64,000 nt of DNA, from assembly GCA_902788345.1 (NCBI GenBank), contig CADAJP010000001.1:153795-217794 (forward strand), read 5' to 3'. A model generated the notes under the pieces. The model made no database searches. It was not told the DNA's origin and saw only the letters and a list, made by a program, of their open reading frames with translations. The number at the start of each line of letters is the position of its first letter. The first letter of the stretch is position 1. Of this stretch, positions 23,024 through 63,415 are shown piece by piece. Source of the DNA: an uncultured bacterium. Lineage in GTDB: Bacteria; Cyanobacteriota; Vampirovibrionia; Gastranaerophilales; Gastranaerophilaceae. A program made the translations under genes and the position numbers.

Positions 23024-23057
23024 ATTTGCATGATAACATGATTTGTCTTTCGGTAAT

Positions 23058-23081
23058 ATATGTTAAGAAATGTTAACATAT
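23058..23081. promoter_or_regulatory. Inverted repeat and candidate operator upstream of the HTH gene
   Basis: ATATGTTAA-gaaatg-TTAACATAT, 35-58 nt upstream of start codon 23023. Confidence 0.35.
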
Positions 23082-23143
23082 TATTAATCCTCAAAACTCA
23101 CTAATATCAATACTTTTGAATTTTATAAAAAATATTTTTTCTT

Positions 23144-23188
23144 AAAAAGGCAATTTTTTAAAATGTAAATACTTTATATATACACAGG
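23144..23188 (+). promoter_or_regulatory. Copy B of the recurrent promoter-like motif
   Basis: aaaaagGCAATT-ttttaaaatgtaaat-ACTTTATATATACACAGG. Confidence 0.55.
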
Positions 23189-23216
23189 GGATATTAAAAA
23201 CACGGGGAACGGAAAA

Positions 23217-24323
23217 ATGATTTCAAATTTATCAATTGCAAATGCACCATATTTAGGATTACCTGGAACAGGTGTCGTTGATTTAGCAGGAAGAACTCAT
23301 ATCTTCACTAATGATCAATTTGGTTCTACTTCAAACGGCGGTATGACATTATTTGGTCAGCAGGGTGCAACACATATTGGTACTGATTATACAGCACCGG
23401 CTGCTCAACCAAATCCATTCGCAGTTGTAAATCAAGCTCAAAGTATGTTAGCTGAAGTTTTCAACAAACTTACTTCAAGCAATATTGATTCAGCATTAGG
23501 TGCATTGACTACTCAAAAAAATCAATTGATCTCTAAATACAATAGCGGTAATGCTTCAAATGAACTTAAAACTGTTATTAAAGAACAAGTAGATCAACTT
23601 GAAAATTATGAAAGACAATTAAACTATTTGAAAGCTAACGGCGGAAACTTAGATCCTCAAACAGCTTATCAAAGATCTGAATACATCAAACACGGTGTTA
23701 CTAATTTAATCAATTTAAGCACAACAACAATCAAGGCTATGGAAGCTCAATCTACCCAAGCAACTCAACAAGCTTCTGAAACTCAACAAGGTCAAAAACC
23801 TGAAGAAGATTCATTAGAAGCAAAAGCTCAAAAAGTTAAAAATGACAATATTTACACAAGAGCAGGCGAAGATGACTTAAATCCTGATGAAGTTTCCGGT
23901 AAATATTATGACGAATTGATAAAAGATTTATATGATTCAATGAAGGGTATCGGAACTGACGACAAAAAACTTGAAGAATCAATGAACAAAATCAATAAAA
24001 ACAATGTAATTGAACTTATGTTCATGTGGAATCAAAAATATCCAAATGAATCTTTAATGGAAATGTTTATGGCAGACGCAGGTTCTCATCAGAAAAAAGA
24101 ATTTGGTGAAAAGGTTGCAACCGCATTAGAACAAGCAGCAGCTGATTTAGGTGTTGACTTATCAAATGATGAAGATATGAAAGCAATCAAAAAAGAAGTA
24201 CACAACAGCTGGTTCTGGATTAACAATGATGTAGCTGACAACTATAACAATATCGTTAAAAAGTTATTGGCAGCTGCAGGAGTTGAATATAACTACTCTC
24301 CATACTCAATGTTTTCAAAATAA
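23217..24323 (+). CDS. Hypothetical protein with one annexin-like repeat near the C-terminus
   Basis: DLYDSMKGIGTDDKKLEESMNKINKNNVIELMFMWNQKYPNESLMEMFMADAGSHQKKEF compares with the annexin consensus L..AMKG.GTDE..LI.IL..R......I...Y....G..L...I..E.SG. No signal peptide. Confidence 0.6.
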   Translation: MISNLSIANAPYLGLPGTGVVDLAGRTHIFTNDQFGSTSNGGMTLFGQQGATHIGTDYTAPAAQPNPFAVVNQAQSMLAEVFNKLTSSNIDSALGALTTQKNQLISKYNSGNASNELKTVIKEQVDQLENYERQLNYLKANGGNLDPQTAYQRSEYIKHGVTNLINLSTTTIKAMEAQSTQATQQASETQQGQKPEEDSLEAKAQKVKNDNIYTRAGEDDLNPDEVSGKYYDELIKDLYDSMKGIGTDDKKLEESMNKINKNNVIELMFMWNQKYPNESLMEMFMADAGSHQKKEFGEKVATALEQAAADLGVDLSNDEDMKAIKKEVHNSWFWINNDVADNYNNIVKKLLAAAGVEYNYSPYSMFSK

Positions 24324-29230: not shown

Positions 29231-29779
29231 TTAGATAATTTTTGATAATGCATTTATATCATTATATTTTTGGTCAATAGCACCATCATTTCTGTCATGC
29301 TGTCTTATAATGTGGATTGCGCCGCCTACGACTGCCGCTAATCCGGCTGCAACTAACATGTATTTGCCTCGCTTTGCACTTGATGAGCTTGCAAATTTTT
29401 CAACTGCGTCAATTACTTTTGTTATAACTTTTTTACCTTTTTCGGTTTTACCGATTTTCTTTCCTGCTTTTGTAATCCATTCGCCTAATTTTGTTGTGAT
29501 TTTGCTTCCGATTTTTGTACTGTTAATTTTTTCAAGTGCTTTACCGCCATAAGTCGTTGCCAAATCAAGACCTTTTGTTACATATTTATCTGCAGCTTTA
29601 TACAATTTAACCATTTTTTTAGGGTTTGCTTTTGCGACTGTATTAACTGCATAAGCAGCACCCCCAGTTCCTGCAAGTGCAACGGCCGTCCCAAAATTGT
29701 TGGCAAATTTTTCCTGACTTTTAGCTTTGTTGTAATCGTAACGAGCACCTACATAACTTCCAAAATTTACACTAGACAT
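29231..29779 (-). CDS. Lys/Gly/Ala-rich hypothetical protein with one hydrophobic Gly/Ala segment
   Basis: 182 aa with no signal peptide. Contains KIGKTEKGKKVITKVIDAVEKF and LVAAGLAAVVGGAIHII. Promoter motif copy D lies upstream. Confidence 0.55.
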   Translation of the reverse strand: MSSVNFGSYVGARYDYNKAKSQEKFANNFGTAVALAGTGGAAYAVNTVAKANPKKMVKLYKAADKYVTKGLDLATTYGGKALEKINSTKIGSKITTKLGEWITKAGKKIGKTEKGKKVITKVIDAVEKFASSSSAKRGKYMLVAAGLAAVVGGAIHIIRQHDRNDGAIDQKYNDINALSKII

Positions 29780-29817: not shown

Positions 29818-29856
29818 CCTACATTATTAAAGTTATTTTTTTTTAATTTATTGCCA
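29818..29856 (-). promoter_or_regulatory. Copy D of the recurrent promoter-like motif
   Basis: Minus strand reads tgGCAATA-aattaaaaaaaaata-ACTTTAATAATGTAGG. Confidence 0.5.
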
Positions 29857-46920: not shown

Positions 46921-48042
46921 TTATGCCATCATTCCGAATCCGTTACCTTGATATTGGAATTTGTATCCCATTGGGTATCTTTGGAAGATGTTTGAACCTG
47001 CATCAAGTCCGAATGGATTAGAGTATGTTGTGTATGCACTTTGTGCAACCGGATTTGATGTGAATGATTGAACTGATGTATCAGATGGTTCTAATTTTTC
47101 AGGAAGTCCTGAATTATTTTGTGCTTGCTGAACAGTTGTTTGATCTGTTGCTTGTGCTTCATCAGTACTTTCAGCTTGTTCAGAACCTTCTTGAGTTTGT
47201 TGTGCTGTTTCAGCTTCAGGAGCTAAACTTCTGATTCTGTCTCTTAAAGCTTGTGTGTTAGTTTCGTCTTGAGCAACTTCTGTCGGCTGTTCTTCAGGAT
47301 TTGCTTCTTCTGTTTCAGCTGCGTGAGTTTCTGCATATGAAGCTCCCATTATTTTGTTTGCAATCCATTCACCTGCAACATAACCTGCGATACCGCCAAT
47401 TGCTCCGCCACAAGCTGCACCAACTGCGCCAAGTGCTGCACCTGCTGCTATTTTAATGCAGGATTTACCGGTTTCTTTTAAACCTGCCCAGAATCCTTCA
47501 TTTTTGAATGCCGGATAGATATTTTCATATGTTTCATATCCTAAAGTTACGAGAGATGCTATTACAGGCATTTTGCAAAGTGGTTTTAAAACTGCTTTTG
47601 TTCCGCCTAATGCTTTGCCAAATTTACCGAGTTTACCTAAGTATTTACCTGTAGTTGCCGCAGCAGCACCTGCTTTAAAAGTTGAAGAAATTGATTTACC
47701 AACTGCACTTGCAATACCTTTAGAGCCTGCTGCAATTTTTTGCAATGATGATAATTTTTTAGCTGCACTTGCTGCATTTACAGCTGCTGAATATTGTGCT
47801 TTTGCTTTTGCATATAAGCCCGGTCTTGATGCAGTTGCAATAATATCAGATTTCAAAGTCTGAAAACCTATTTTTGCTTTTGGTACAAAGTTTTGGAATA
47901 TAGTACGTCCGCCAACTGATTTTCTTGCGTTTTGAATAACACTATATCCTTCGCCAAAAGCATATCTTGGTACAACAGATGCATATTTTAATCCTGTTTT
48001 ACCATATTGTAATCCCAGTTTTGCTAATGATGCGATACTCAT
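46921..48042 (-). CDS. Gly/Ala/Lys-rich protein with a glycine-zipper segment and an acidic/Q-rich tail (paralogue of 52356..53279)
   Basis: GAALGAVGAACGGAIGGIAGYVAGEWIANKIMGASYAE. No signal peptide. Promoter motif copy A lies upstream. Confidence 0.6.
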   Translation of the reverse strand: MSIASLAKLGLQYGKTGLKYASVVPRYAFGEGYSVIQNARKSVGGRTIFQNFVPKAKIGFQTLKSDIIATASRPGLYAKAKAQYSAAVNAASAAKKLSSLQKIAAGSKGIASAVGKSISSTFKAGAAAATTGKYLGKLGKFGKALGGTKAVLKPLCKMPVIASLVTLGYETYENIYPAFKNEGFWAGLKETGKSCIKIAAGAALGAVGAACGGAIGGIAGYVAGEWIANKIMGASYAETHAAETEEANPEEQPTEVAQDETNTQALRDRIRSLAPEAETAQQTQEGSEQAESTDEAQATDQTTVQQAQNNSGLPEKLEPSDTSVQSFTSNPVAQSAYTTYSNPFGLDAGSNIFQRYPMGYKFQYQGNGFGMMA

Positions 48043-48067
48043 TTTTAAATCCCCTTTATATATATCC

Positions 48068-48111
48068 CCTGTGTATATATAAAGTATTTAATTTATAGAG
48101 AATTGCTTTTT
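48068..48111 (-). promoter_or_regulatory. Copy A of the recurrent promoter-like motif
   Basis: Minus strand reads aaaaaGCAATT-ctctataaattaaat-ACTTTATATATACACAGG. Confidence 0.55.
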
Positions 48112-48146
48112 TGTTAATTTTATATTAAGTTTTGTAAAGTTATAAT

Positions 48147-49088
48147 TTATTCGTTGAAGTCTGCATCATTGATATATTCATACTTTTGGTCGTTATTGTT
48201 TTGATTTCCAGCACCGCTATTAATTGTTGAACCGGATGGTTTTGATTGAACGGAACGATTAATTACTGTAGTAAAATCAGATAAGTTGTTTATATTATAA
48301 AAATGACCGCCTGTTGTGTTTGAAAGACAGGTTAAATTTCTTGAATAAGACGAAACTAAAACTACATCAATATGCACATCTGAACGCTTTGTCATAAGGC
48401 GTCTTGCAAATTCACACGGATCACCTCCGCAATTTTCACCGCCATCAGTAATAAGAACAATTTTTTTAGGGGTTGTCATATCAAGGTTTGCAAAATCTTG
48501 TGCGACTGTTCTGTCAAGAGCATACACTAGCGGTGTTGCTCCTCCTATATCAACAGAATTCATACCGTTTAACAAGGATGATGCGTTAGCACTTACTATT
48601 GGAGCAACTTGTGTTGTAGCCGTACATACTCCTGATGTGTTTCCAAGATAGCTTTTAACTGTTACAACTGACATCTTGTTCCCTTTTTTAACTATTTTTT
48701 TAATATCCTGAACAGTTGAGGAACGCGGATTATTTCCATAATTATCATGACCAAAAACTCTGAAGCCAACCTTTACTGATGACGGAATTTGTGAAACAAT
48801 TGATGCCATGCTTCTTTTTGCAACAGTAATCCAGTTTGCCATACTGCCGGAATAATCCATTACAAATTCAATAATCTCTGTTTCATCACGATTAACGGCA
48901 TTTGAGTCAATATAAGTTTGGGTTGTATATGTATTATAAAAATTCTGGTTAACAACATTTCCCGGTGAATTTAAAACTTTTCCCTGTTCAGATTTAACAA
49001 CACCGGAAGAATTTACGCTGTATTTAGCCGCAAAACATCCGCAGCAAGTGAATACTGACAACATTAATATTAACAAAAGTTTTTTCAT
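48147..49088 (-). CDS. Secreted or lipoprotein von Willebrand factor A (vWA) domain protein
   Basis: Signal peptide MKKLLLILMLSVFTCCGC. The MIDAS motif is VMDYSGSM (DxSxS). Also LITDGGENCGGDPC. Confidence 0.8.
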   Translation of the reverse strand: MKKLLLILMLSVFTCCGCFAAKYSVNSSGVVKSEQGKVLNSPGNVVNQNFYNTYTTQTYIDSNAVNRDETEIIEFVMDYSGSMANWITVAKRSMASIVSQIPSSVKVGFRVFGHDNYGNNPRSSTVQDIKKIVKKGNKMSVVTVKSYLGNTSGVCTATTQVAPIVSANASSLLNGMNSVDIGGATPLVYALDRTVAQDFANLDMTTPKKIVLITDGGENCGGDPCEFARRLMTKRSDVHIDVVLVSSYSRNLTCLSNTTGGHFYNINNLSDFTTVINRSVQSKPSGSTINSGAGNQNNNDQKYEYINDADFNE

Positions 49089-52355: not shown

Positions 52356-53279
52356 TTATGCGGTCATATTATACTGAAAATTCGGTTTCATAATATCATC
52401 TGAATAAGGTTGGTTTTGAACTGCGAACGGATTATACGCACCCGGTGTATTTACTGCCGGCATTGCAGGGGTTTGAGGTGTTGGAACATTTCCTTGCATT
52501 GTCGGACTGTTTGTCATTTGCATTTGTGGGTTAGCAGCAGGAGTCTGTGCTATTTGTTCTGCTTGCGGATTTTGCATCCAGAACGGATTACCGTTTGGTT
52601 GATGTTCTTGTGCTTGTTCCGGAGTTTGCATTTGCTGTTGTTGTTCAATAAATGTTCTTAATTGTTCTTCTTTTTCAGCTTTTTCTTCCGAATAAGATTT
52701 ACCTACAATTTTACTTGCAAACCATTCACCTGCAATCCACCCTGCCATTGTACCGACAAAAGGAATTGGTATTACGGCTGAACCTATTGCGGCTCCTAAA
52801 CCGCCGCCTGTAAGTTTAGCAGTTGATTTAATTACTTCTGCTCCGCCCTGGAAGATGCCTTTTTCTTTTGTTGCTGTAAATATATTTGGAAGTTCAAACA
52901 ACATCATTGACAATGCACCAATAAACGGCATCTTTTTGCCAACGCCTTTGAAAAATCCTTTTGTGCCTTCTAAAAACACATTCCTACCGGTTAATCTTGC
53001 CGCTGATGTTTTTGTTAAAATATTTGATTTTATGCAAGGTATGAAATTTTTGAAGTTCTTTATAAAATTTTCGAAAAAATTTCCGGCACCGGCTTTTTCT
53101 AATGCGTGCCAGCCGGCCTGTGCTTTTGTAAATAATGAGCCGTTTGTTTTTCTTAAAGTTTCACCAATCGATTCACTAGCACTTCCAAAAATCAGTTCCG
53201 GAACTACCTCTCCTACACGTTTTGTGTAGCCCCAGGCTTTACCTAAATTGCTCATTGCCATTGATACGCCGCTAACCAT
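52356..53279 (-). CDS. Gly-zipper/Q-rich protein (paralogue of 46921..48042)
   Basis: GGGLGAAIGSAVIPIPFVGTMAGWIAGEWFASKIVGKSYSEE aligns with the paralogue. The Q/P-rich tail carries NPFWMQN and NPFAVQNQ. Confidence 0.6.
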   Translation of the reverse strand: MVSGVSMAMSNLGKAWGYTKRVGEVVPELIFGSASESIGETLRKTNGSLFTKAQAGWHALEKAGAGNFFENFIKNFKNFIPCIKSNILTKTSAARLTGRNVFLEGTKGFFKGVGKKMPFIGALSMMLFELPNIFTATKEKGIFQGGAEVIKSTAKLTGGGLGAAIGSAVIPIPFVGTMAGWIAGEWFASKIVGKSYSEEKAEKEEQLRTFIEQQQQMQTPEQAQEHQPNGNPFWMQNPQAEQIAQTPAANPQMQMTNSPTMQGNVPTPQTPAMPAVNTPGAYNPFAVQNQPYSDDIMKPNFQYNMTA

Positions 53280-53338: not shown

Positions 53339-53383
53339 CCTACATATATATAAAGTTTTTCTTTTTTGAATAATTGCTTTTTT
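53339..53383 (-). promoter_or_regulatory. Copy C of the recurrent promoter-like motif
   Basis: Minus strand reads aaaaaaGCAATT-attcaaaaaagaaaa-ACTTTATATATATGTAGG. Confidence 0.55.
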
Positions 53384-63370: not shown

Positions 63371-63415
63371 CTTACATATATATAAAAACTCCACTTAAAA
63401 AAATATTGACTTTTT
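63371..63415 (-). promoter_or_regulatory. Copy E of the recurrent promoter-like motif
   Basis: Minus strand reads aaaaagTCAATA-tttttttaagtggag-TTTTTATATATATGTAAG. Confidence 0.5.

What the first reader, a model, noticed from the sequence alone, without database searches (positions are those of the whole stretch)
23144..23216. Two unrelated genes 25 kb apart share a near-identical ~45-nt promoter and 5' leader
The upstream region of 23217(+) reads aaaaagGCAATTttttaaaatgtAAATACTTTATATATACACAGGGGATATtaaaaacacGGGGAacggaaaaATG. The upstream region of 48042(-) reads aaaaaGCAATTctctataaattAAATACTTTATATATACACAGGGGATATatataaaGGGGAtttaaaaATG. The 29-nt block AAATACTTTATATATACACAGGGGATAT is identical in both. 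Both leaders then contain a second GGGGA box at the Shine-Dalgarno position. The encoded proteins (annexin-like versus Gly-zipper) are not paralogues. The conservation is therefore regulatory rather than a by-product of gene duplication. Two G-rich boxes with one over the Shine-Dalgarno are reminiscent of CsrA-type translational control, but that link is speculative.
Basis: seen in the sequence. Interest (0 to 1): 0.6.

Follow-up and report, generated by a model that had tools for sequence, protein, structure and literature searches.

The report
Shared promoter and dual-SD leader cassette
Two unrelated genes of an uncultured gut relative of cyanobacteria share 28 identical bases because each sits behind a copy of a nearly invariant, lineage-wide promoter followed by a ribosome-binding-like G-box at the start of the message; this marks a regulon of effector-like proteins and is not a CsrA switch.

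Summary
AAATACTTTATATATACACAGGGGATAT occurs exactly at 23167-23194(+) and 48062-48089(-), with 0 expected by chance, and a third exact copy lies elsewhere in the genome. The flanks are at background identity and the proteins are unrelated.

The block is not a private element of two genes. It is the core of a bipartite, promoter-like motif, aaaa(G/A)GCAATT-N14-TACTTTATATAtA-YR. About 50 copies occur in this 1.85-Mb Gastranaerophilales genome. The exact core occurs in 57/61 genomes of the order and 0/80 other genomes of the phylum.

The motif faces short leaders of mostly family-less, signal-peptide-less proteins, including CHAP, SLT, lysozyme, LysM and ADP-ribosyltransferase-like ones, and several terminator-ended ORF-less RNAs.

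The extra 12 identical bases (CACAGGGGATAT) are one 'leader type'. A Shine-Dalgarno-like box sits next to the presumed start site and is repeated as the real SD 7-8 nt before the ATG. This within-leader repetition is statistically significant. A 52%-identical homologue in another organism keeps the block exactly.

CsrA, Hfq and RNase J are absent and the leaders are unstructured, so the CsrA idea fails.

The parts
23149..23155 (+). GGCAATT upstream box (-35-like) of the promoter in front of 23217(+)
   Evidence: Near-invariant GCAATT at a fixed 14-nt distance from TAC in 30/32 seed sites. It is part of a 47.3-bit PWM hit.
23170..23182 (+). TACTTTATATATA downstream box (-10-like region)
   Evidence: TACTTTATA is invariant in the family. 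The exact pattern GCAATT-N14-TACTTTATATA occurs in 57/61 genomes of the order, against 0 for the reversed control.
23167..23194 (+). 28-nt block identical to 48062-48089(-) and to C4:78676-78703(-)
23183..23184 (+). C-A, the pyrimidine/purine step taken as the most likely transcription start (A23184). This is inferred, not mapped.
   Evidence: Position +13 from TAC is a pyrimidine in 103/112 promoters of 16 other genera, and +14 is a purine in 111/112. No RNA data were available.
23187..23191 (+). GGGGA box 1: SD-like box at the presumed 5' end of the mRNA
   Evidence: It lies at the fixed position (+17 from TAC) where family leaders carry a purine/G-rich box. The G-box is enriched in mRNA leaders relative to ORF-less transcripts from the same promoter (p = 0.0028).
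23204..23208 (+). GGGGA box 2: Shine-Dalgarno sequence of the 23217 gene
   Evidence: It lies 8 nt before the ATG. GGGGA(A/T) precedes the ATG by 4-14 nt at 89 ORFs genome-wide, most of them without this promoter.
23217..24323 (+).
   Evidence: Homologues are only 30% identical within the genus.
48101..48107 (-). AGCAATT upstream box of the promoter in front of 48042(-)
   Evidence: 43.7-bit PWM hit.
48074..48086 (-). TACTTTATATATA downstream box
48062..48089 (-). 28-nt identical block, second copy
48065..48069 (-). GGGGA box 1 (5'-proximal SD-like box)
48050..48054 (-). GGGGA box 2: Shine-Dalgarno sequence, 7 nt before the ATG at 48042
46921..48042 (-). 373-aa Gly-zipper protein gene (P0002)
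   Evidence: Homologues occur in 20/41 genomes of the family, nearly all behind the same promoter.
53345..53378 (-). Third strong copy of the promoter in the window (AGCAATT-N14-AACTTTATATATA). It has a different leader type (tgTAGGTTAGGTT...) and drives the paralogous Gly-zipper gene 52356-53279(-).
   Evidence: 43.6-bit PWM hit. Paralogy: (E = 8.8e-15).
63377..63410 (-). Weak copy (GTCAATA-N14-GTTTTTATATATA tgtaagag...)
   Evidence: 9.1-bit PWM hit.
29822..29855 (-). Weak copy (GGCAATA-N14-AACTTTAATAATG) with a leader GGTAGTGA...AGGTTAGGT, in front of 29231-29779(-)
   Evidence: 9.2-bit PWM hit.

Best explanation
Both genes sit behind copies of one lineage-specific promoter class of Gastranaerophilales (non-photosynthetic relatives of cyanobacteria). 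The class reads aaaa(G/A)GCAATT, exactly 14 nt, TACTTTATATAtA, then a pyrimidine-purine step where transcription most likely starts (inferred). The first 16 bases of the shared block are the near-invariant downstream promoter box. The last 12 (CACAGGGGATAT) are the start site plus a 'G-type' 5' leader box, GGGGA(T/A), that lies about 3 nt from the presumed 5' end of the mRNA. The second GGGGA is simply the gene's Shine-Dalgarno sequence. An unidentified sigma-70-family factor or sigma/activator pair, not the housekeeping specificity, is inferred to read the two DNA boxes. This would co-express about 45 scattered genes for family-less, signal-peptide-less, effector-like proteins together with a handful of small RNAs. 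The 5' box is inferred to act on the RNA as a second ribosome-binding-like site, for standby loading and/or protection of the 5' end. It matches the gene's own SD in type, it is specific to mRNAs of the class, and in the shortest leaders it is itself the SD. The identity between the two window genes reflects purifying selection on this cassette. It does not reflect common descent of the genes or CsrA control.
For: Shown directly:
- The block is exact at two window sites and one further genome site, and the flanks are at background identity.
- There are 50 sites of at least 20 bits in the genome, against none above 14 bits in a shuffled genome. The score distribution is bimodal and the spacing is fixed.
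- All sites face a downstream ATG or a terminator-ended ORF-less RNA. The ATG lies 25-60 nt after TAC in 38 of 50.
- The core pattern occurs in 57/61 genomes of the order and in 41/41 sampled genomes of the family, against 0/80 in the rest of the phylum. Reversed-pattern controls gave 0.
- Homologues of both proteins in other genera are preceded by the same promoter.
- A metagenomic homologue that is 52% identical to P0002, and another that is 38% identical to a third G-type gene, keep the 25-nt core exactly while the spacer and the rest of the leader differ.
- Position +13 is a pyrimidine in 103/112 and +14 a purine in 111/112 promoters of 16 other genera.
- Box 1 resembles the downstream box of the same leader more than boxes of other leaders. 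The mean longest shared word is 4.86 against 4.36 +/- 0.08, and none of 300 permutations reached it. Within this genome alone it is 5.0 against 4.32 +/- 0.16.
- Dual GGGGA after CTTTAT occurs in 20/61 genomes of the order, against one control match.
- GGGGA is an ordinary SD here, found at 4% of ORFs, mostly behind canonical TGnTATAAT-type promoters.
- The 5' G-box is stronger in mRNA leaders than in ORF-less transcripts from the same promoter (p = 0.0028).
- No canonical sigma-70 site is called at either locus in the gene's orientation.
- The genome has nine sigma-70-family genes: RpoD, three group-2-like, one FliA/WhiG, one SigB/F/G-type and three ECF.
Against: - The -35/-10 assignment and the claim that box 1 is transcribed therefore rest on geometry and the Y/R signal.
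- A third, weaker TTAACA-like box lies 15-17 nt (or 25-27 nt) upstream of GCAATT in about 36/50 sites. This allows a different promoter register.
- The cognate sigma is not identified, and no sigma gene carries the motif upstream.
- RNase J, the enzyme that the classical 5' SD stabiliser blocks, is absent.
- The 16S 3' end is not in the assembly, so anti-SD pairing of GGGGA could not be checked.
- Within-leader box similarity could partly be a legacy of tandem duplication, for example ACAGAGGATTA ACAGAGGATTA in a relative.
- The metagenome hits were found by searching for the block itself, so they show conservation where it exists, not how often it is lost. In the same-genus genome G050 the homologues carry TACAGGGGAAAA and GGTTAG/GGTGGT leaders instead.
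Confidence: 0.7

Rival explanations
1. The two G-boxes are binding sites for a trans-acting RNA regulator. This would be either a CsrA-like dimeric protein of an unknown family or CU-rich small RNAs transcribed from the same promoter class. It would repress or time translation of a 'G-type' sub-regulon, and multi-box RNAs would act as sponges.
For: - ACAGGGGAU resembles the CsrA SELEX consensus RUACARGGAUGU (from memory, not tested).
- The boxes are 10-17 nt apart at variable spacing, which fits recognition on single-stranded RNA.
- Box types (GGGGA, AGGTAGGTT, AGAGAGA) co-vary within leaders.
- Seven ORF-less, terminator-ended RNAs are driven by the same promoter. One has five GGGGAA/GGGAA boxes and no AUG (C6:182948). 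Others have CU-rich runs such as CUCUCUCUUCUU, CUACCUAC/AACCUU, CACACUUCAC and AUUCCUAUUCCUAAUUCCU.
- These RNAs have orthologues with conserved CU-rich cores in other genera.
Against: - There is no CsrA and no Hfq.
- The leaders have no hairpins.
- Complementarity of the small RNAs to regulon leaders is not greater than to other genes' 5' regions or than for shuffled RNAs. For words of 8 nt or more the fraction is 0.47 against 0.54.
- C-rich seed targets are only weakly enriched (odds ratio 2.8-3.2, p = 0.02-0.06) for two RNAs and not for the others. No promoter-driven RNA of this genome has a clear anti-GGGGA seed outside a terminator stem.
Confidence: 0.15
2. The 3' half of the block (CACAGGGGATAT) works at the DNA level. 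It would be an initially transcribed or discriminator sequence that sets promoter strength or escape, or an operator for a DNA-binding repressor such as the two ribbon-helix-helix proteins that belong to the regulon.
For: - The box has a fixed position relative to the promoter in all family members, and positions +14 to +18 show an R-N-R-R-G consensus even in small-RNA genes (RTAAG).
- Two near-identical RHH (CopG-type) genes carry the same promoter, one directly downstream of the FliA/WhiG sigma gene.
- The exact 12-mer is kept across species.
Against: - The box differs in type between genes that share the same upstream promoter, so it is not needed for promoter recognition.
- ORF-less transcripts from the same promoter mostly lack a G-rich box.
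- The box 1 to box 2 distance varies from 10 to more than 17 nt without helical phasing, which is unlike an operator for an RHH dimer-of-dimers.
- In the shortest leaders the same box is the only possible SD.
Confidence: 0.2
3. The register is shifted. A weak TTAACA-like -35 and GCAATT(T) as a -10-like element form the promoter, transcription starts upstream of TAC, and the invariant AAAUACUUUAUAUAUA plus the G-box is a conserved RNA leader element.
For: - A T(T/A)A(A/C)A box peaks 15-17 nt upstream of GCAATT in about half of the sites, which is classical -35/-10 spacing.
- CAATTT has A at position 2 and T at position 6.
- The consensus scan calls TTAACA-16-TAAATT on the minus strand at 48117-48090.
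Against: - The upstream box is weak (0.2-0.4 bits per position), occurs at two phased distances, and is missing at 23217.
- The invariant AU-rich 13-mer has no predicted structure.
- The Y/R step at +13/+14 and the absence of any ATG closer than +25 fit a start just after the box.
- Such invariance of an unstructured RNA word across about 50 genes and an order would itself need an unknown reader.
Confidence: 0.1
4. The identity is a neutral trace of recent copying: duplication or short-patch gene conversion of a promoter cassette within this genome, without selection on the last 12 bases.
For: - Three copies in one genome are identical over 28 nt.
- Two other promoters of the genome share an identical 14-nt spacer (C4:78700 and C6:76227), so some copying between promoters does occur.
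- Leader type is not tied to the protein family. P0002 has a G-type leader, while its paralogue and most of its homologues have the AGGTAGGTT type.
Against: - Identity stops sharply at both ends of the block and the spacers differ.
- The same 25-mer stands in front of homologues that are 52% and 38% identical at the protein level in other organisms, and in genus g5 (G037).
Confidence: 0.05

Closest known systems
Alternative-sigma regulon promoters, such as sigma-28/FliA class-3 flagellar promoters and Bacillus SigB/F/G-type promoters (established knowledge)
   Same: Two short conserved DNA boxes at rigid spacing. High information content. Dozens of dispersed copies, each oriented toward a gene and close to its start. 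The sequence differs from the housekeeping TTGACA/TATAAT. The 14-nt gap between the boxes is in the range typical of group-3 sigmas.
   Different: The sequence (GCAATT / TACTTTATATA) matches no consensus I know. No sigma is assigned and no start site is mapped. There is an additional weak upstream TTAACA-like box.
STAB-SD 5' mRNA stabiliser of Bacillus thuringiensis cry3A (PMC4113751, section 3.2)
   Same: [quoted passage not shown] It is proposed to bind a 30S subunit.
   Different: STAB-SD acts by blocking the 5'-3' exonuclease RNase J1. This genome has no RNase J, only RNase E/G and RNase Y. Here the box lies about 3 nt from the presumed 5' end and only 10-17 nt from the real SD. No stability data exist.
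CsrA/RsmA-controlled leaders and CsrB/RsmZ sponge RNAs
   Same: Two GGA-containing boxes 10-17 nt apart, with one over the SD. One ORF-less RNA from the same promoter class has five GGGGAA/GGGAA boxes.
   Different: There is no csrA gene. The boxes are not in hairpin loops. GGGGA is a common SD in ordinary genes.
HLR1 / RpaB-type activator sites of cyanobacterial promoters
   Same: A (G/T)T(T/A)ACA-like box upstream of the core promoter, sometimes as two direct copies about 10-11 nt apart.
   Different: The box is weakly conserved, usually single, and lies at two alternative distances. It is absent at 23217. The strongly conserved parts of the motif are the two downstream boxes, which HLR1 does not describe.
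C-rich small RNAs that pair with G-rich SD regions (RoxS/RsaE type, established knowledge)
   Same: CU-rich single-stranded stretches in short, terminator-ended RNAs, and purine-rich boxes in leaders.
   Different: No significant excess of complementarity to the regulon leaders. No Hfq. No experimental data.

Membership tests
CsrA/Rsm-regulated leader | A csrA/rsmA gene in the genome | tested here: not met
   PF02599 search of the own genome (98.8% complete) gave 0 matches, while the controls ring. tblastn with E. coli and B. subtilis CsrA gave only a spurious hit inside a 404-aa ATPase-like ORF.
CsrA/Rsm-regulated leader | GGA motifs presented in hairpin loops, one overlapping the SD | tested here: not met
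   One GGGGA is at SD distance. However, both leaders fold no better than shuffles (-3.6 kcal/mol; z = 0.09 and 0.21).
CsrA/Rsm-regulated leader | Sponge RNA with many GGA sites | tested here: inconclusive
   The ORF-less RNA at C6:182948(+) has five GGGGAA/GGGAA boxes, no AUG and a terminator. Its conservation and binding were not tested.
Sigma-70-family bipartite promoter | Two conserved boxes at fixed spacing, oriented toward and close to downstream genes | tested here: met
   GCAATT-N14-TAC spacing holds in 30/32 seeds. There are 50 sites of at least 20 bits against 0 in the shuffled genome. The ATG lies 25-60 nt downstream in 38/50, and the rest face small RNAs or longer leaders.
Sigma-70-family bipartite promoter | Match to the housekeeping TTGACA-17-TATAAT consensus | tested here: not met
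   No such site is called in the gene's orientation at 23030-23230. At 48030-48200 only a 9/12 TTAACA-16-TAAATT match is called, in another register. Ordinary genes of the genome do show TGnTATAAT-type sites.
Sigma-70-family bipartite promoter | Mapped transcription start 5-9 nt after the -10 element, and dependence on a sigma factor | not testable with these tools
The only indirect signal is the Y/R step at +13/+14 (103/112 and 111/112). Nine sigma genes were listed but none could be assigned.
STAB-SD-type 5' stabiliser | SD-like sequence near the 5' end that is not used for initiation | tested here: inconclusive
   Box 1 lies 17 nt after TAC, 15-17 nt upstream of the real SD, and no ATG follows it at SD distance. 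Whether it is at the RNA 5' end depends on the unmapped start.
STAB-SD-type 5' stabiliser | A 5'-3' exoribonuclease (RNase J) to be blocked | tested here: not met
   TIGR00649 gave 0 matches in the own genome. RNase E/G and RNase Y are present.
STAB-SD-type 5' stabiliser | Complementarity to the 3' end of 16S rRNA | not testable with these tools
   No 16S 3' end is in the assembly. GGGGA does serve as an SD for many ordinary genes, which supports pairing indirectly.
HLR1/RpaB-dependent promoter | Direct repeat of (G/T)TTACA(T/A)(T/A) upstream of the core promoter | tested here: inconclusive
   A TTAACA/GTAACA/TTTACA-like box lies 15-17 nt (26/50) or 25-27 nt (about 10/50) upstream of GCAATT. 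It is mostly single. CTTAATA is present at 48042 and no box is present at 23217.
sRNA-targeted SD region (C-rich sRNA type) | Seed complementarity to the leaders above background | tested here: inconclusive
   There is no excess over other genes' 5' regions or over shuffled RNAs. C-rich seed targets have an odds ratio of 2.8-3.2 (p = 0.02-0.06) for two of seven RNAs only.

The most novel reading that the evidence does not exclude
The leader boxes form a second, post-transcriptional layer of a self-contained regulon. One lineage-specific promoter would drive three kinds of transcript: effector-like mRNAs whose leaders carry two copies of one of a few box types (GGGGA, AGGTAGGTT, AGAGAGA); CU-rich small RNAs; and a five-box decoy RNA. 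An unknown RNA-binding factor or these small RNAs would read the box type and sort the regulon into separately timed sub-sets. This would be a CsrA-independent analogue of the Csr/Rsm system in an uncultured sister lineage of cyanobacteria.
Probability: 0.15. Interest if true: 0.75.

Novelty: new variant of a known kind. Interest (0 to 1): 0.5.

Why it matters
Gastranaerophilales are common gut and rumen bacteria with no cultured, genetically tractable member, and nothing is published on their promoters.

A roughly 45-bit invariant promoter that is specific to the order has three uses:
- It gives a sequence-only way to list a whole co-regulated gene set in any genome of the group. The set consists of family-less, signal-peptide-less proteins, among them cell-wall hydrolases and an ADP-ribosyltransferase-like protein, plus new small RNAs.
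- It gives a concrete test object for assigning a sigma factor.
- It is a portable, probably strong promoter-leader cassette.

The doubled SD-like box is a compact, repeated natural design. Its role (ribosome standby, 5'-end protection without RNase J, or a regulator site) can be tested with simple reporter fusions.

The pair in the finding is not a separate discovery.

Tried and rejected
- **CsrA:** no gene was found by HMM search or tblastn. Rejected.
- **Structured leader or riboswitch:** folding is no better than shuffles, and no Rfam family lies at either site. Rejected.
- **Recent segmental duplication:** the flanks are at background identity, and the block is kept in front of diverged homologues. 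Rejected.
- **Upstream ORF started from box 1:** an AUU would be in frame at 23217, but the frame is stopped at 48042 (read). Rejected.
- **Small-RNA pairing to the leaders:** RNAduplex suggested type-specific partners, but the energies came from long looped duplexes. Two controlled tests showed no or only weak excess. Kept only as a low-probability rival.
- **Classical STAB-SD mechanism:** RNase J is absent. Only the general idea of a 5' ribosome-binding site is kept.
- **Start-site mapping:** The exact-protein look-ups gave only DNA metagenome contigs.
- **Anti-SD check:** no 16S 3' end is in the assembly.
- **Sigma assignment by autoregulation:** none of the nine sigma genes has the motif within 300 nt upstream.
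- **The search for related loci with P0002:** it found nothing. Taxonomy was instead obtained with RpoD.
- **Literature:** nothing was found on Gastranaerophilales promoters.
Full report
**1. The observation**

Reading both strands and a pattern search confirm the block. AAATACTTTATATATACACAGGGGATAT is exact at 23167-23194(+) and 48062-48089(-). No match appeared in 100 dinucleotide-preserving shuffles, even with up to 3 mismatches allowed.

- In both copies GCAATT lies 14 nt upstream of TAC.
- A second GGGGA lies 8 and 7 nt before the ATG.
- The proteins (368 and 373 aa) are unrelated (BLASTP E = 0.38) and match no Pfam family.
- Outside the block the two upstream regions are at background identity: 16/49 upstream, 5/10 in the spacer and 7/20 downstream.

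**2. The organism**

The window is C1:153795-217794 of a 1.85-Mb, 33% G+C assembly of 21 contigs that is 98.8% complete. Its RpoD is 81-93% identical to uncultured gut and rumen MAGs. Titles at 81% and 73% identity read Candidatus Gastranaerophilales; further relatives at 69-73% are labelled Vampirovibrionales and Melainabacteria.

**3. The block belongs to a genome-wide family**

- A third exact copy lies at C4:78676-78703(-), and eight further sites differ by 3-6 mismatches.
- Aligning 32 sites on TACTTTATA shows a bipartite motif: aaaa(G/A)GCAATT, 14 nt, (a)a(a)TACTTTATATAtA. The spacing is the same in 30/32.
- An iterated weight matrix finds 50 sites of 20-60 bits. It finds almost nothing between 14 and 20 bits, and nothing above 14 bits in a shuffled genome.
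- Every site faces either an ORF whose ATG lies 25-60 nt after TAC (38/50), a longer leader, or an ORF-less stretch that ends in an intrinsic terminator.
- In the window there is a third strong copy at 53345-53378(-), in front of the paralogous Gly-zipper gene, and two weak copies.

**4. Phylogenetic spread**

- The exact pattern GCAATT-N14-TACTTTATATA occurs in 57/61 genomes sampled from the order, up to 24 times per genome. The reversed-pattern control gave 0.
- A second sample shows it in 41/41 genomes of the family and 0/80 genomes from the rest of the phylum.
- Homologues of both proteins evolve fast: 30% identity within the genus for P0001, and 32-43% for P0002. They are nevertheless almost always preceded by the same motif.
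- No paper on promoters of this group was found.

**5. Why it is read as a promoter, and what is not shown**

Four features are those of a sigma-type promoter: two asymmetric boxes at rigid spacing, strict orientation toward nearby genes and small RNAs, the copy number, and the distance to the ATG.

- The housekeeping consensus is not matched at either locus. Ordinary genes of the genome do show TGnTATAAT-type sites.
- In 112 promoters from 16 other genera, position +13 from TAC is a pyrimidine in 103 and +14 is a purine in 111. This is the classical -1/+1 preference. I therefore place the start at A23184 / A48072.
- Under that reading, TACTTT carries T, A and T at the three most conserved -10 positions, and GCAATT sits at -34 to -29.
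- This placement is inference.
- A weak TTAACA-like box lies 15-17 or 25-27 nt upstream of GCAATT in about 36/50 sites. It allows an activator site or a shifted register, which is listed as a rival.

The genome has nine sigma-70-family genes: RpoD, three group-2-like, one FliA/WhiG, one SigB/F/G-type lying directly upstream of a prepilin-peptidase-like gene, and three ECF. None has the motif upstream. The 14-nt gap and the divergent region 2.4/4.2 residues of the 298-aa group-2-like sigma are leads only.

**6. The last 12 bases and the 'two G-boxes'**

After the start site the family splits into leader types. Each type carries the same purine-rich, SD-like word twice:
- GGGGA(T/A) ... GGGGA. 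This type includes both window genes and C4:78700, C4:41977, C2:225239 and C6:15723, among others.
- AGGTAGGTT ... AGGTAGGTT. This type includes the window paralogue at 53357 and most homologues of P0002 in 10 or more genera.
- AGAGAGA ... AGAGAGA.
- Other types occur in other genera, for example ACAGAGGATTA twice.

The repetition is significant. The longest word shared between +14..+25 and the rest of the same leader averages 4.86, against 4.36 +/- 0.08 when partners are permuted, and none of 300 permutations reached it. Within this genome alone it is 5.0 against 4.32 +/- 0.16.

In the shortest leaders (ATG at +25 to +31) box 1 is the only possible SD. In longer leaders it persists upstream of a second box at SD distance.

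GGGGA is an ordinary SD here. It occurs at 4% of crude ORFs, and there are 89 GGGGA(A/T)-ATG pairs, mostly behind canonical promoters. Two GGGGA boxes in an intergenic leader were seen only with this promoter.

Dual GGGGA after CTTTAT occurs in 20/61 genomes of the order, mostly in the same family, against one control match. One genome of another genus has CTTTATATATACACAGGGGATAT followed by three boxes.

**7. Is the 12-mer under selection?**

Identity to CACAGGGGATAT among the 50 promoters is 12/12 for three, 8-11 for four, and 7 or less for the rest.

A scan of metagenome contigs for the 25-mer found five sites:
- Three are another strain of the same species.
- One stands in front of a protein 52% identical to P0002 (E = 5e-48).
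- One stands in front of a protein 38% identical to the G-type gene at C2:225239 (E = 6e-95).

In the last two, the spacer and the rest of the leader differ. One caveat applies: the search was for the block itself. In the same-genus genome G050 the homologues carry TACAGGGGAAAA and a GGTTAG/GGTGGT leader. Leader type can therefore change between species and is not tied to the protein family.

**8. RNA level or DNA level?**

- The promoter itself does not need a G-box. The seven ORF-less transcripts of this genome carry fewer G in +15..+26 than the 30 long-leader mRNAs (1.7 against 3.2, with 2.0 expected from composition; p = 0.0028). The pooled test that includes relatives is biased by how I picked those RNAs.
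- The box type differs between genes with identical upstream boxes.
- The distance between the two boxes varies from 10 to more than 17 nt without helical phasing.

These points favour a role on the mRNA connected with ribosome binding. The closest precedent is the STAB-SD of cry3A, an SD-like sequence near the 5' end that binds a 30S subunit and blocks RNase J1 (PMC4113751). However, RNase J is absent here, while RNase E/G and RNase Y are present. Only the general idea can be carried over: a standby or 5'-end-protecting ribosome site. It remains inferred.

**9. CsrA and other trans-factors**

- No CsrA was found.
- No Hfq was found, although the control did not ring for a cyanobacterium, so a divergent Hfq is not excluded.
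- The leaders are unstructured, and no Rfam family matches.

The same promoter drives small RNAs with CU-rich cores that are conserved in other genera:
- AAAGCUCUCUCUUCUUAUUUAAA.
- ...AACCUAC...AACCUUCUACACACGAGGAAUU...
- ...AACCUACCUAACUUCCUAACCUUCCCUUCCU... in relatives.

It also drives one RNA with five GGGGAA/GGGAA boxes and no AUG. Duplex predictions looked type-specific. Controlled tests, however, found no excess complementarity to regulon leaders over other genes or shuffled RNAs, and only weak enrichment for C-rich seeds of two RNAs. This stays a low-probability but interesting rival.

**10. What the regulon encodes**

Of 42 downstream proteins, at least 31 have no Pfam match. The hits are CHAP (2), SLT, phage-tail lysozyme, LysM, an ADP-ribosyltransferase exoenzyme domain, HEAT, and two ribbon-helix-helix proteins.

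The N-termini are Ser/Gly/Ile/Asn-rich and have no Sec-type signal (read). Two proteins share their first 26 residues but have different C-terminal parts. This looks like a set of exported effector-like proteins; export itself was not tested.

**11. Verdict**

The regulatory reading is right in kind, and the CsrA reading is wrong.

What this analysis adds:
- The doubled SD-like box architecture, with statistics.
- The cross-species conservation of the exact cassette.
- The mRNA-specificity of the 5' box.
- The exclusion of CsrA, Hfq and RNase J.

What remains open:
- The transcription start.
- The sigma factor.
- The function of box 1.

Noticed in passing
Own genome, outside the window: C12:1815(+), C10:36332(+), C5:62026(-), C8:8550(-), C1:128229(+), C2:104402(+), C6:182948(+); relatives L122-L138: Seven ORF-less transcripts of 55-180 nt are driven by the same promoter and end in intrinsic terminators. 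Several have CU-rich cores (CUCUCUCUUCUU; CUACCUAC/AACCUU; CACACUUCAC; AUUCCUAUUCCUAAUUCCU). Their orthologues in other genera keep those cores. They match no Rfam family in the window scan and appear to be new small-RNA families.
   Followed up: partly
Own genome C6:182948(+), about 180 nt: This RNA carries five GGGGAA/GGGAA boxes, has no AUG and ends in a strong terminator. It looks like a sponge or decoy for whatever reads GGGGA boxes. Its conservation was not tested.
   Followed up: no
Own genome C5:60564(+) and C5:50129(-): Two regulon proteins share an identical 26-residue N-terminus (MGLQKVAFNFMVERGGKLAKSLLCTK) but have different C-terminal parts. One matches the ADP-ribosyltransferase exoenzyme family (E = 2e-10). 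This is a polymorphic-toxin-like layout.
   Followed up: partly
Own genome C6:72364-72416(-) and C5:17828(-): Two near-identical 62-aa ribbon-helix-helix (CopG-type) genes carry the regulon promoter. One starts about 180 nt downstream of the FliA/WhiG-type sigma gene (C6:72542-73366). They are possible regulators of the set.
   Followed up: no
Own genome C4:61408-63257(+): The only SigB/F/G-type sigma gene overlaps by 4 nt the start of a prepilin-peptidase-like gene. Its own upstream region has a TGcTATAAT extended -10 site.
   Followed up: no
Whole own genome: No CsrA, Hfq or RNase J was detected in a 98.8%-complete genome, while RNase E/G and RNase Y are both present. No 16S rRNA 3' end is in the assembly.
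   Followed up: yes
Own genome C6:119545(-), C10:11901(+), C7:25849(+), C2:39338(+): A repeated CU-rich element, (T/A)TCCCCTATT(C/T)CCTTATT(C/T)C(C)TTTT, lies just upstream of TGCTAT-type -10 sites at several loci. It is unexplained.
   Followed up: no
Own genome C4:78700(-) and C6:76227(+): Two promoters of the class share an identical 14-nt spacer (atttaaaattgaaa) although their leaders and genes differ. This hints at occasional copying between promoter cassettes.
   Followed up: no
window 23217-23260(+) and 48042-48000(-): The N-termini of the two otherwise unrelated proteins look alike (MISNLSIANAPYLGL and MSIASLAKLGLQYG). Many regulon proteins start with similar small-residue-rich, signal-peptide-less sequences. 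This may be a shared export signal.
   Followed up: no
L002 (G050:C7, same genus): The homologue of P0001 is a tandem pair there. The first copy (MAISPQGM...) carries the promoter with a TACAGGGGAAAA leader. The second (MAISPIGM...) follows without a promoter of its own.
   Followed up: partly
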